DNA from: Candidatus Borrarchaeum weybense
GTDB lineage: Archaea; Asgardarchaeota; Sifarchaeia; Borrarchaeales; Borrarchaeaceae
DNA length: 64,000 nt
Assembly: GCA_019057385.1 (NCBI GenBank)
Contig: JAHQJS010000004.1
Span: 544,001 to 608,000 of the forward strand
Reading direction: 5' to 3'
In this document: positions 1,882 to 3,743 of the stretch, piece by piece
Layout: each line of letters opens with the position of its first letter
Position numbering within the stretch: position 1 is the stretch's first letter
Translations under genes and position numbers: made by a program
Notes under the pieces: generated by a model
What the model was told of the DNA's origin: nothing
The model's database searches: none
What the model saw: only the letters and a program-made list of their open reading frames with translations

Positions 1882-1984
1882 TTGAATAAGTCGCCTAAAG
1901 ATTAATGTTTTAGTTCTCGCTATGAGTTTATCCAAGATTTCTTGTTTTCGGGCAATTTAAAAAAAACAAATTAAGATGGAGTAA

Positions 1985-2350
1985 GTGACATCCTCCCCAG
2001 CCTTTCGGATGGGGCTTCCAGCTTTCCATTGTAGTTCTCGCTCCCTCACGGGAGGCGACGCTTCGCCACTTTTCCTACAGTTATGGGCTTACGGAAGCCG
2101 TACCAGGTTGCACACGCTGCTCACCCTTATCCTGCCCCTTGTTTATCTGCCTGCAGGATGCTATTGATCTGTTACCTGCCTGCTTTGCAGGTTAGCACAC
2201 TGCACACCAAAAGGGGACTCTCTTGCCACGCTGGATAAGATCTCATGCACGGGCATCCTCACGTTTAGCCCTGTCACCTGCTGACTGGTCGCTTACAGGA
2301 GGATATACCTCCACCCAGTCGAGCATTACGGGTACACTTGCGGTACCATC
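1985..2350 (-). ncRNA. Large structured RNA (omegaRNA-like) inside the IS605-type ends
   Basis: Many helices: GGTAC/GTACC, GACTGG/CCAGTC, GGAGG/CCTCC, CTTATCC/GGATAAG, CCCCTT/AAGGGG, CCTGC/GCAGG, GGCTT/AAGCC, GGCGA/TCGCC, CTCCC-GTGA-GGGAG, TGTAG/CTACA and CC-GAAA-GG. An internal TATA-like TTTTTATA lies ~25 nt upstream. Confidence 0.6.
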
Positions 2351-2428
2351 TATAGGTTTCCAAAAAACTATAAAAAGACATCGGCTTTCATCCCCCAGCT
2401 GTCGAAAGGAGACTTTCCGCCGATAAAG
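1985..2428 (-). mobile_element. Non-autonomous IS200/IS605-type element (444 bp, no transposase or TnpB ORF)
   Basis: On the minus strand it reads TTTAA|CTTTATCGGCGGAAAGTCTCCTTTCGACAGCTGGGGGATGAAAGCCGA (left-end hairpin) ... GAAGCCCCATCCGAAAGGCTGGGGAGGATGTCAC| (right-end hairpin ending TCAC). GC is clearly higher than in the flanks. Confidence 0.75.
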
Positions 2429-2471
2429 TTAAATTCTTCTTCTCAATGAGTGTATCCACAATTTCTTGCTG

Positions 2472-3743
2472 TTAGGATGGAGTAATTAAAGGAAGCGTTT
2501 CTCCTCCAATAGGGAGCGTCCATACGCTTGCATCATTACCCATTCTTGAAAAAGCAAGATCTAGTGCGTCTTCCACGCTATCTGATGGGGTCATATTAAA
2601 AGGATCTTCTACTAATTCAGAGTCTAACTCTGAAACTAGAATTATATCTGCCTTCATCATCGTTTTCCGCATATAGTATGCTTTGTGCCCACCGAGTTTA
2701 AAATTAGTTTGCACTTGTTTACTTAGTTCCTCTAGAGTTTTATATTTATACATCCATTCTTCAAAGACTTTATGTCCTATACCATCTTTGCACGCTGCAA
2801 TTACCACTAATTGACCACCAGGTTTAACTATCGTCTGAGCCTGTTCAATCGCTTTTTGAGCTTGATAGAGGTTGATATCCTTTGGAAAGCCGCCTGAACT
2901 CACTAAGACGATATCGGCAGGTTTGTCTACGTAGATTTTGAACAATTCGTCTACTTTTTTTACACATTTATTGAAGGCGCTGACTATCCCACCAGTGGCA
3001 ACCTCGGCAACCTCCTTATTTGAATCGAGAACAACACTTACGCAAAAATCAACTTTAGCCTTTTCAGCAGCCTGTGTCATATCGACATGAATAACATTCC
3101 CGTCTAGGTTTCCTGTAACTGCATCTGGATGAATTAAATTTGAATGGTTTTTCTGAATGCTTTTTAAGCTTGAAATTCCAGGCAAAATGCTTTTTCGACC
3201 TCCTGTGTACCCTGCATAATAATGAAATGCAACATCTCCAATAGTAATTCGTTTATCTGCTTCAACAAACTTTCTATTTAGCTCCACAGGTGTCTGTAAA
3301 TGCGTCATTCCTAAATTGACTAAATCATCAGCTTGACAATTATGATTCTCTACTACAAAACGGCTAACTATGTCTTTACCCAATAACTCATCCATTTCCT
3401 TTCTAGTCACAGGACGATGACTACCAACTGCAATTAGTATCTCAATGTTTTCCTCTTTAATACCCAAATTATCAAGTCTATTTAGCAAAACAGGTAGGAT
3501 TTCTTTGCTTGGAGTGATTCTCGTGTTATCGTTGACTACTATACTTATTTTATCATTCCTATCGAAAAGCTTATCAAAACTTGATTTATCTACGGGATTA
3601 TTGATGGCGTTTTCATAACTAAGAATTGGTGTTGGATTTTCAATATTCGAATTTTTTTTACTCTCAATAACGCCCAAAGAGTTTTTGTCGCTTATATCTG
3701 TATAAATGGCTTCTTCTCCGTATTTTAGTTCTACTTCTACCAA
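2472..3743 (-). CDS. larA: LarA-family nickel-pincer lactate racemase/epimerase
   Basis: VNDNTR, AVGSHR, HYYAGYTGGRKSILPG, GGFPKDINLYQAQK motifs. Confidence 0.9.
   Translation of the reverse strand: MVEVELKYGEEAIYTDISDKNSLGVIESKKNSNIENPTPILSYENAINNPVDKSSFDKLFDRNDKISIVVNDNTRITPSKEILPVLLNRLDNLGIKEENIEILIAVGSHRPVTRKEMDELLGKDIVSRFVVENHNCQADDLVNLGMTHLQTPVELNRKFVEADKRITIGDVAFHYYAGYTGGRKSILPGISSLKSIQKNHSNLIHPDAVTGNLDGNVIHVDMTQAAEKAKVDFCVSVVLDSNKEVAEVATGGIVSAFNKCVKKVDELFKIYVDKPADIVLVSSGGFPKDINLYQAQKAIEQAQTIVKPGGQLVVIAACKDGIGHKVFEEWMYKYKTLEELSKQVQTNFKLGGHKAYYMRKTMMKADIILVSELDSELVEDPFNMTPSDSVEDALDLAFSRMGNDASVWTLPIGGETLPLITPS

What the first reader, a model, noticed from the sequence alone, without database searches (positions are those of the whole stretch)
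1985..2428. Protein-free IS200/IS605-ended element carrying a ~360-nt structured RNA
Seen: TTTAA precedes a left-end hairpin, and a right-end hairpin terminates in TCAC. Between them are an internal TATA-like box and a GC-rich tract with at least 11 helices, two GNRA tetraloops (GUGA, GAAA), a k-turn-like GC-AUGAGA...GUGA-GC motif and a crossing AGGAUGC/GCAUCCU pair (possible pseudoknot). No TnpA/TnpB coding remnant is recognisable. Established: TnpB omegaRNAs derive from the right end and take their guide from the flank. Inference: a stand-alone, mobile, unusually large guide-RNA gene served in trans by a TnpB/Fanzor-like nuclease, or a new ncRNA class that travels on IS605 ends.
Basis: partly seen in the sequence, partly recalled or inferred. 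Interest (0 to 1): 0.85.

Follow-up and report, generated by a model that had tools for sequence, protein, structure and literature searches.

The report
Protein-free transposon carrying a guide-like RNA
This is a mobile, gene-less IS200/IS605 element of Asgard archaea that carries only a promoter and a conserved 250-350-nt folded RNA built like a TnpB guide RNA, yet no nuclease gene carrying this RNA scaffold was found.

Summary
Window 1985-2428 (native strand: minus) is a 444-nt protein-free IS200/IS605 element. It sits directly after TTTAA (2429-2433) and ends in GGATGTCAC.

- **Mobility:** the genome (Asgard, Borrarchaeum genus) has 6 full copies and 1 deleted copy, all with different flanks. 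Nine loci that are filled in relatives are empty here, with precise joints and no target duplication.
- **Ends:** the left end, including an archaeal TATA box, is shared with seven TnpB elements, one of which carries the genome's only Y1 tnpA. The right end shares only its last hairpin with them.
- **RNA:** the interior has no tnpB remnant and no Rfam match. It folds into three domains with 93-97% pairing and 39 pairs showing compensatory changes.
- **Spread:** homologous protein-free elements occur in at least four other Asgard families.
- **Guide-RNA features:** a TnpB-omegaRNA-like 3' module, a candidate pseudoknot between GUGAC and the last five bases before the flank, and no conserved internal terminator.

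The most likely reading (about 0.55) is a stand-alone omegaRNA-type guide RNA used in trans. Stand-alone omegaRNAs are already known. What is new is an old, enlarged, RNA-only lineage with no effector locus carrying its scaffold. First readers of this scan had noted other copies of this family in the same genome.

The parts
2429..2433 (-). TTTAA target site (expected TAM) directly 5' of the left end
   Evidence: Conserved 5' of every copy. Empty sites in G000 keep TTTAA, or a diverged form of it, joined directly to the right flank.
1985..2428 (-). Whole protein-free IS200/IS605 element (444 nt)
   Evidence: BLAST, nhmmer and alignment boundaries. Precise insertion without target duplication.
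2381..2423 (-). Left-end subterminal hairpin
   Evidence: Alifold pairs 15-19/55-59 and 25-31/44-50 with compensatory changes. 79-85% identical to the left ends of 7 TnpB elements.
2369..2377 (-). Archaeal TATA-like box (TTTTTATAG) inside the left end, facing inward
   Evidence: Core T and A are invariant in 17 elements from 5 lineages. The same box precedes tnpA or tnpB in the resident IS copies. Promoter function is inferred.
2260..2350 (-). RNA domain 1 (5' hairpin, GCCC/GGGC stem, GACUGG/CCAGUC stem, GUGAC motif)
   Evidence: Model R2. 96.9% of cells paired, 14 pairs with changes on both sides, 0 of 500 shuffles reach this.
2273..2277 (-). GUGAC, candidate 5' arm of a pseudoknot with the last 5 nt of the element
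   Evidence: 31 of 34 scorable copies can pair with the tail (4 more copies lack the motif or were not parsed). GCGGC pairs with GUCGC in two g12 genomes, a change on both sides. An analogous GUGRAC/GUUCAC pairing is seen in the TnpB omegaRNAs.
2103..2261 (-). RNA domain 2 (long-range helix, k-turn-like motif, CCCC/GGGG stem); 2145-2211 is an apical insert found only in subfamily A
   Evidence: Model R3. 93.0% paired, 14 pairs with changes on both sides, 0 of 500 shuffles. The insert is absent in subfamily B and other lineages.
1985..2104 (-). RNA domain 3, an omegaRNA-like 3' module (closing stem, GGCGA hairpin, GNRA hairpin 2041-2054, right-end hairpin 1995-2014, tail GGAGGAUGUCAC)
   Evidence: Model R1. 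96.2% paired, 11 pairs with changes on both sides, 0 of 500 shuffles. Weak matches to the last ~70 nt of the TnpB elements.
1965..1984 (-). Right flank, the place a TnpB-type guide would come from (begins TTACTCCATC; a T8 run follows from about +19)
   Evidence: Sequence. Guide function is inferred, not shown.
2434..2485 (-). Extra DNA between the ancestral TTTAA and the left end (57 nt at 2429-2485 counting its own TTTAA); starts with a 10-nt copy of the right flank and restores the C-terminus of the LarA-like gene
   Evidence: Comparison with the empty orthologous locus G004:C20. Unique in the genome.

Best explanation
The element is a non-autonomous IS200/IS605 transposon whose only cargo is an RNA gene.

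Shown:
- It inserts precisely 3' of TTTAA without a target duplication.
- It is multi-copy and polymorphic between species.
- Its left end is homologous to that of resident TnpB elements, one of which carries the genome's single Y1 TnpA. That TnpA is the likely mobiliser in trans.
- Its interior has a conserved, covarying secondary structure in at least five Asgard lineages.

Inferred:
- The TATA box in the left end drives a roughly 350-nt RNA on the minus strand.
- That RNA runs through the right end into the flank, because no conserved oligo-T lies inside the element.
- The RNA therefore has the layout of a TnpB omegaRNA: scaffold 5', flank-derived guide 3'. Its 3' module has the topology of the resident TnpB omegaRNA, and a pseudoknot joins an upstream GUGAC to the five bases next to the guide.
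- A TnpB made elsewhere in the genome, with TAM TTTAA, would load it and cut the empty donor joint after excision. Repair from the sister copy would then restore the element.

On this reading the element exploits both TnpA (for movement) and TnpB (for retention). The extra 5' domains, with a k-turn-like motif, may stabilise the RNA or recruit an archaeal RNA-binding protein.
For: - **Copies and flanks:**
- **Empty sites:** nine loci. The window's own locus is empty in G004.
- **Left end:** shared with 7 TnpB elements, and tnpA lies at C7:194221-194586.
- **Right end:** the hairpin and GGAAGCCCC motif are shared with the TnpB elements.
- **Structure:** 96/97/93% paired, with 11, 14 and 14 compensated pairs, 0 of 500 shuffles, and slid controls at 34-52%.
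- **Strand:** several pairs are mostly G-U. Alifold gives -91 against -78 and -62 against -49 kcal/mol for native against opposite strand, and the single-sequence z-score is -2.3 against -1.1.
- **Pseudoknot:** tabulation. The same kind of pairing is seen in the sister TnpB omegaRNAs. In ISDra2 the pseudoknot uses nucleotides -5 to -3 next to the guide and is the conserved core of TnpB and Cas12 guides (PMC10097598).
- **Co-occurrence:** the TnpB clade is in 11 of 14 RNA-positive genomes against 15 of 137 others.
- **RNA libraries:** contigs in RNA libraries of four studies contain the interior.
- **Precedent:** stand-alone omegaRNAs work in trans (PMC10691335; PMC10055086).
Against: - No TnpB gene carries this scaffold or its right-end tail GGAGGATGTCAC in this genome, nor this scaffold in 150 other Asgard genomes.
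- TnpB elements of several families always end in GTAGTTCAC, so the two lineages have been separate for a long time.
- Similarity to the resident omegaRNA is limited to about 70 nt and is weak (E 0.2-0.6).
- The RNA is two to three times the size a TnpB needs (116 nt in ISDra2).
- Three RNA-positive genomes showed no close TnpB of that clade, although they are only 77-80% complete.
- The pseudoknot rests on one compensated change seen in two related genomes.
- Kin are not independent, and any element that depends on the same TnpA would also co-occur with this TnpB clade.
- No read evidence exists for strand, RNA ends or a guide.
Confidence: 0.55

Rival explanations
1. The RNA is a cargo that works without TnpB, for example a ribozyme or the RNA of another ribonucleoprotein. 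It uses IS200/IS605 ends and TnpA only for transport. Its resemblance to an omegaRNA at the 3' end then reflects only the right-end sequences that TnpA needs.
For: Two thirds of the RNA (domains 1 and 2) have no counterpart in any TnpB-linked RNA found. Conservation across five lineages exceeds that of the TnpB-linked ends. A k-turn-like motif and a GNRA hairpin are present. No effector locus has the same scaffold.
Against: No known ribozyme or RNA family matches. The 3' module extends about 70-115 nt beyond what TnpA hairpin recognition needs, and it covaries. The candidate pseudoknot involves the last five bases, as in TnpB and Cas12 guides. Nothing suggests what such an RNA would do.
Confidence: 0.22
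2. The element is selfish DNA with no RNA function. On this view the conserved pairing reflects folding of the single-stranded DNA transposition intermediate, or simply recent common descent of the copies.
For: IS200/IS605 elements move as single-stranded DNA and depend on DNA hairpins (PMC10055086). Copies within the genus are only 8-14% diverged.
Against: Compensated pairs are spread over all three domains and occur between lineages that share little sequence (mean column identity 51%). Several pairs are mostly G-U, which is weak in DNA and strand-specific. ~50-nt mini-elements with the same ends occur at several loci with different flanks, so the interior does not appear to be needed for transposition. 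The TATA box is conserved. The interior is found in contigs of RNA libraries.
Confidence: 0.1
3. The element is a degraded omegaRNA relic. It would be a deletion derivative of a TnpB element whose intact form is now lost or not sampled, still mobilised by TnpA but no longer used by any nuclease.
For: Conventional deletion derivatives of the resident TnpB element exist in the same genome, for example C8:185652-185957. The 3' module has omegaRNA topology.
Against: Structure is maintained by compensating changes in at least five lineages, which argues for continuing selection. There is no coding remnant. No parental TnpB form was found in 151 genomes or in the metagenome scan.
Confidence: 0.1

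Closest known systems
Stand-alone omegaRNAs and PATE-like IS200/IS605 elements that encode omegaRNAs (Altae-Tran 2021 as cited in PMC10691335; Meers 2023, PMC10055086)
   Same: Protein-free, bounded by IS200/IS605 ends, mobilised in trans, found in genomes that also hold effector-containing elements, with an RNA placed at the right end.
   Different: In the descriptions read here, the known cases are presented as working with compatible effectors encoded in other loci of the same genome. Here no effector locus carries this scaffold. The RNA is 250-350 nt with two extra domains, sits behind the promoter of the left end, and forms a separate lineage spread over at least five Asgard families.
TnpB omegaRNA / reRNA (ISDra2; PMC10097598)
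   Same: Scaffold ends at the transposon right end with the flank as the would-be guide. A guide-adjacent pseudoknot is a candidate. The closing stem, inner hairpin and right-end hairpin have the same topology as in the resident TnpB omegaRNAs.
   Different: It does not overlap a tnpB gene. It is about three times the 116-nt functional scaffold. The pseudoknot partner lies 190-290 nt upstream. No significant sequence or covariance-model match extends beyond about 70 nt.
IscB/IsrB omegaRNA (HEARO, Rfam RF02033)
   Same: A large, highly structured RNA carried by IS200/IS605-type elements. The same genome holds 16 IscB-like genes with true HEARO RNAs.
   Different: No HEARO match, although HEARO is readily detected at the IscB loci. 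The strand and guide position are opposite: HEARO has a 5' guide and is read from outside the right end. Models R2 and R3 do not match the IscB loci.
IStrons (group I intron plus IS605/IS607; 10.1101/2023.11.20.567912)
   Same: An IS605-ended element that carries a large structured RNA. ORF-less PATE forms exist.
   Different: No group I intron match. All seven copies are intergenic. The element has its own promoter. The boundaries do not fit the usual group I splice-site rule (U before the 5' splice site, terminal G), a rule taken from general knowledge rather than from a paper read here.

Membership tests
IS200/IS605 non-autonomous element (PATE-like) | Insertion 3' of a fixed short motif, with no target-site duplication and a scarless empty site | tested here: met
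   Filled and empty pairs at nine loci, for example ...TTTAA|element|GCATTTACC against ...TTTAAGCATTTACC. The window locus is empty in G004.
IS200/IS605 non-autonomous element (PATE-like) | Different subterminal hairpins at the two ends, no terminal inverted repeats | tested here: met
   Left-end and right-end hairpins with covariation. The two ends are unlike each other.
IS200/IS605 non-autonomous element (PATE-like) | Ends shared with an element encoding a Y1 (HUH) TnpA in the same genome | tested here: met
   The left end is 79-85% identical to those of 7 TnpB elements, including the tnpA-tnpB copy at C7:194115-195965. The right end shares only its hairpin and GGAAGCCCC motif.
IS200/IS605 non-autonomous element (PATE-like) | No protein-coding gene | tested here: met
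   No significant tblastn match to TnpB in the interior. No Pfam hit for the small ORFs. Indels between subfamilies include one- and two-base gaps, as well as a ~70-nt block.
TnpB omegaRNA | Scaffold abuts the right end and the guide is read from the flank | tested here: inconclusive
   Promoter orientation, strand-specific G-U pairs and the lack of a conserved internal oligo-T fit this. No reads show the 3' end.
TnpB omegaRNA | Pseudoknot between the nucleotides next to the guide and an upstream segment (PMC10097598) | tested here: inconclusive
   GUGAC/GUCAC complementarity is kept in 31 of 34 scorable copies, with one compensated change seen in two genomes. The analogous pairing exists in the sister TnpB omegaRNAs.
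TnpB omegaRNA | Overlaps or follows a tnpB gene, or matches the omegaRNA of a tnpB-carrying element | tested here: not met
   No tnpB is present. Model R1 reaches only E 0.24-0.55 at resident TnpB 3' ends, and R2 gives nothing. No TnpB gene in G000 has the tail GGAGGATGTCAC.
TnpB omegaRNA | Bound by TnpB and directs TAM-dependent DNA cleavage | not testable with these tools
   Needs expression, pull-down and interference assays.
IscB/IsrB omegaRNA (HEARO RF02033) | Match to the HEARO covariance model, with a 5' guide read from outside the element | tested here: not met
   No match even at E up to 10 or in divergent members. HEARO scores 67-135 bits at three IscB loci of the same genome. R2 and R3 find nothing there.
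IStron / group I intron | Group I catalytic core, with insertion tolerated inside genes through splicing | tested here: not met
   No Rfam intron match. All 7 copies are intergenic.

The most novel reading that the evidence does not exclude
It would either use a dedicated, still unidentified effector encoded outside the element, or act on nucleic acid by itself. That would make it a new class of mobile guide or catalytic RNA, rather than a stray copy of a TnpB omegaRNA.
Probability: 0.2. Interest if true: 0.85.

Novelty: new variant of a known kind. Interest (0 to 1): 0.62.

Why it matters
Guide RNAs of TnpB, IscB and Cas enzymes are usually found next to their nuclease genes. Here the RNA has become the whole transposon. 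It keeps only ends, a promoter and a scaffold, and it has persisted as its own lineage in several Asgard families beside the TnpB elements.

If a resident TnpB uses it, this is a clear natural case of a guide RNA acting as a hyperparasite of both a transposase and a nuclease. It would also show how far a TnpB scaffold can be enlarged and diverge while still being used, which is useful for engineering compact editors.

If TnpB does not use it, it points to an unknown RNA-guided or RNA-catalysed activity in the archaea closest to eukaryotes. In either case it is a well-supported new structured RNA family that is absent from Rfam.

Tried and rejected
- **Rfam:** nothing at gathering thresholds over the whole window, nothing at E up to 10 on 1700-2700, and nothing at E up to 1 on divergent members. 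An early guess of RNase P RNA, based on a GGAAAGUC motif, was dropped.
- **tRNA/tmRNA:** none in the window.
it lies in a subfamily-specific insert and is not compensated.
- **Degenerate 19-mer scan of genome contigs:** only chance hits.
- **Viral contig scan:** 18 chance hits, none confirmed by model R1.
- **G001:C178 variant:** a decayed, truncated copy that tells us nothing more.
- **G005:C171:** the 3' module follows unrelated sequence, with no TnpB ORF upstream.
- **G075 hit:** only a 51-nt right-end-like hairpin, so it was not counted.
- **Guide off-targets:** the first 12 nt of each copy's right flank have no TTTAA-adjacent match elsewhere in the genome.
- **Sigma-70 and terminator scan:** not informative for an archaeon.
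- **Read laying:** contigs of four RNA libraries cover only about 1986-2329. The left end (2346-2433) and most of the flanks are uncovered. No DNA run was laid for comparison, the records are assembled contigs, and the element is a repeat, so this lack of cover says nothing about the RNA's 5' or 3' end. The habitats of those low-share runs are not evidence either.
- **Co-occurrence with TnpB:** suggestive only, because related genomes are not independent samples.

Full report
**The observation.** The stretch is a GC-rich island (50-55% GC against 32-42% around it). It lies between two convergent genes, a DUF72 gene (688-1881, +) and a LarA-like gene (2472-3743, -). Read on the minus strand it begins right after TTTAA (2429-2433) with a hairpin (2381-2423). 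A TTTTTATAG box follows (2369-2377), then about 350 nt of dense structure. It ends with a hairpin (1995-2014) and GGAGGATGTCAC at 1985.

**It is a mobile element.**
- The assembly (4.18 Mb in 8 contigs) holds six full copies that are 88-92% identical, plus one internally deleted copy. Similarity stops sharply at the same two boundaries, and every copy has different flanks.
- All seven copies are intergenic.
- Record titles of related contigs place the genus among Asgard archaea, named Borrarchaeum, Sifarchaeum or Promethearchaeota by different depositors.
- All four other genomes of the genus carry several copies, in two subfamilies. Subfamily B lacks a roughly 70-nt apical insert. Marine-sediment and other metagenome contigs hold more copies.
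- For nine loci that are filled in relatives or metagenomes, this genome has the empty site. The joints show insertion exactly after TTTAA with no duplication, for example ...TTTAA|GCATTTACC.
- The window's own locus is empty in G004, whose flanks are 91% identical.
- These are the hallmarks of IS200/IS605 peel-and-paste transposition (PMC10055086).

**Relation to resident elements.**
- The genome has 41 TnpB-type matches but only one Y1 tnpA.
- The 73-nt left end, TATA box included, is 79-85% identical to the left ends of seven 414-436-aa TnpB genes. One of these follows the tnpA at C7:194221-194586. The likely mobilising enzyme is therefore present.
- The right end resembles theirs only in the terminal hairpin and the GGAAGCCCC motif. 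TnpB elements end in GGGGTAGTTCAC, while this family ends in GGGGAGGATGTCAC.
- No TnpB gene in the genome has the second tail. It occurs only on the seven RNA elements and on five ~50-nt single-hairpin mini-elements.

**The interior is an RNA gene, not a decayed protein gene.**
- tblastn with the resident TnpBs gives only chance matches in the interior. The small ORFs have no Pfam match. nhmmer finds the interior nowhere else in the genome.
- RNAalifold on 17 copies predicts 108 pairs.
- I built covariance models for three domains and aligned all members to them. The results:

| Domain | Cells paired | Pairs changed on both sides | Shuffles reaching this |
|---|---|---|---|
| 3' module | 96.2% | 11 | 0 of 500 |
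| Domain 1 | 96.9% | 14 | 0 of 500 |
| Domain 2 | 93.0% | 14 | 0 of 500 |

- Slid controls give only 34-52% pairing. These alignments were fitted to the models, which favours the structure. Even so, the same compensations are visible in plain MAFFT alignments. One example is the GNRA hairpin, which reads UCCC-GUGA-GGGA, CUCG-GCGA-CGAG and UUUG-GUGA-CAAA in different lineages.
- The RNA strand is the minus strand. Several pairs are predominantly G-U. Full-length alifold energies favour it (-91 against -78 and -62 against -49 kcal/mol), as does the single-sequence z-score (-2.3 against -1.1). The conserved TATA box points inward, as it does in front of tnpA and tnpB.
- Contigs from RNA libraries of four studies contain the interior. 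This shows presence in RNA libraries, not proven transcription.

**The family is old and wide.**
- Models R1 and R2 find homologous protein-free elements in other Asgard families. G005 has at least ten copies that break its assembly. G018 and G036 have one assembled copy each. Six of 15 sampled genomes of genus g12 have elements of about 300 nt.
- They all keep the same plan: a TTTAA-type site, left-end hairpin, TATA box, GACUGG/CCAGUC stem, GUGRC motif, AUGA...GA motif, CCCC/GGGG stem, AACCUGG, closing stem, GNRA hairpin, right-end hairpin and a GGAGGAUGUC-type tail.
- None has an upstream TnpB frame.
- TnpB orthologues in those same families end in GTAGTTCAC. The two kinds of element have therefore run in parallel for a long time.

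**What it is not.**
- No Rfam family matches the window, the region, or the divergent members.
- Following a first-reader lead, I found 16 IscB-like genes in this genome. True HEARO RNAs (67-135 bits) lie upstream of the three examined. HEARO detection therefore works here, yet this RNA does not match it. Models R2 and R3 also do not match the IscB loci.
- An IscB-type RNA would also lie on the other strand, with its guide at the 5' end.
- An IStron-like intron is unlikely: there is no intron match, every copy is intergenic, and the element has its own promoter.

**How it most likely works.**
- The layout is that of a TnpB omegaRNA without the gene. The scaffold runs up to the right end, and there is no conserved oligo-T inside, so transcripts should continue into the flank.
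- The last ~115 nt have the same topology as the resident TnpB omegaRNA: closing stem, inner hairpin, A-rich linker, then the right-end hairpin.
- In ISDra2 the conserved core of TnpB and Cas12 guides is a pseudoknot between nucleotides -5 to -3 and a distant upstream segment (PMC10097598).
- Here the last five bases (GUCAC) are complementary to an invariant GUGAC in domain 1. The pairing is kept in 31 of 34 scorable copies. It changes on both sides (GCGGC with GUCGC) in two g12 genomes, where the competing local hairpin would be broken.
- The sister TnpB omegaRNAs show the analogous GUGRAC/GUUCAC pairing.
- The TnpB clade that shares the left end occurs in 11 of 14 RNA-positive genomes against 15 of 137 others. 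Relatedness and shared dependence on TnpA weaken this figure.
- I therefore favour, at about 0.55, a stand-alone omegaRNA-type guide RNA. TnpA would mobilise it, and a TnpB supplied in trans would use it to re-cut the emptied site so that the element is restored.

**Against this reading.**
- No effector locus carries this scaffold.
- Similarity to the resident omegaRNA is weak (E 0.2-0.6 over about 70 nt).
- The RNA is far larger than TnpB needs.
- Rivals are a TnpB-independent RNA cargo (0.22), selfish DNA without RNA function (0.10), and a relic omegaRNA (0.10).

**Novelty.** Stand-alone, mobilised omegaRNAs that work in trans, and PATEs that encode omegaRNAs, are already published. The general idea is therefore known. 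What is new is a distinct, enlarged RNA-only lineage that sits behind its own copy of the left-end promoter, is conserved across Asgard families, has no cognate effector locus, and is absent from Rfam. First readers of this scan had flagged other copies of the family in this genome. I checked those copies here by alignment.

**Limits.** There is no direct evidence for the RNA's ends, for a guide, or for protein binding. Most related genomes are incomplete metagenome bins, so absences are weak evidence. The covariance-model E-values are rough.

Noticed in passing
window 2429-2490 and 1965-1984: Compared with the empty locus in G004, the window has 57 extra nt between the ancestral TTTAA (inside the last codons of the LarA-like gene) and the left end. 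The extra DNA starts with a 10-nt copy of the right flank (TTACTCCATC) and restores the gene's C-terminus (...ITPS-stop). As a result, the would-be guide matches a TTTAA-adjacent site in the gene at 13 of 16 positions, with the first mismatch at position 11. The origin of the 57 nt is unexplained, and it is unique in the genome.
   Followed up: partly
G000 C6:388842-389357, C6:531260-531772, C3:136540-137052 and 13 more (loci L283-L288): The genome has sixteen IscB-like genes (RRXRR domain, roughly 315-450-aa frames). True HEARO RNAs (Rfam RF02033, 67-135 bits) lie upstream of the three checked. This Asgard genome therefore carries IscB, TnpB and the RNA-only family side by side.
   Followed up: partly
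G000 C6:740464-740502, C6:90729-90782, C4:817182-817221, C7:213986-214038, C7:708194-708246: There are ~50-nt single-hairpin mini-elements that fuse the left and right ends (TTTAA | ... GGGGAGGATGTCAC). Others carry the TnpB-type tail GTAGTTCAC (for example C4:842066 and C4:1075416). This suggests the interior is not needed for transposition.
   Followed up: partly
G000 C8:185652-185957: This is a conventional deletion derivative of the resident TnpB element: left end, the last ~230 nt of tnpB with its omegaRNA, then the right end. It is the ordinary kind of stand-alone omegaRNA, and it sits in the same genome.
   Followed up: no
G001:C89:2357-2412 and G003:C273 (loci L119, L120): In two more distant relatives, the same DUF72/LarA intergenic spot holds a mini-element with the GTAGTTCAC-type end, placed right after a TTTAA that follows the LarA stop codon. 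The spot seems to be a repeated target.
   Followed up: no
G000 C6:738268-739908 and C4:1265246-1265464: Two larger TnpB-like proteins (546-558 aa) have OrfB_IS605 and Zn-ribbon domains and a long N-terminal extension. One lies just downstream of a mini-element. Their RNA partners were not examined.
   Followed up: no
G000 whole genome: There is only one Y1 tnpA (C7:194221-194586, with HUH and Tyr motifs present), against 41 TnpB-type matches, 16 IscB-like genes and dozens of protein-free elements with related ends.
   Followed up: partly
G005:C171:3838-3946 (L273 439-547, minus strand): A copy of the 3' module (tail GGAAGCCAC) follows sequence unrelated to domains 1 and 2, with no TnpB frame upstream. 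It may be a chimeric or decayed variant.
   Followed up: partly
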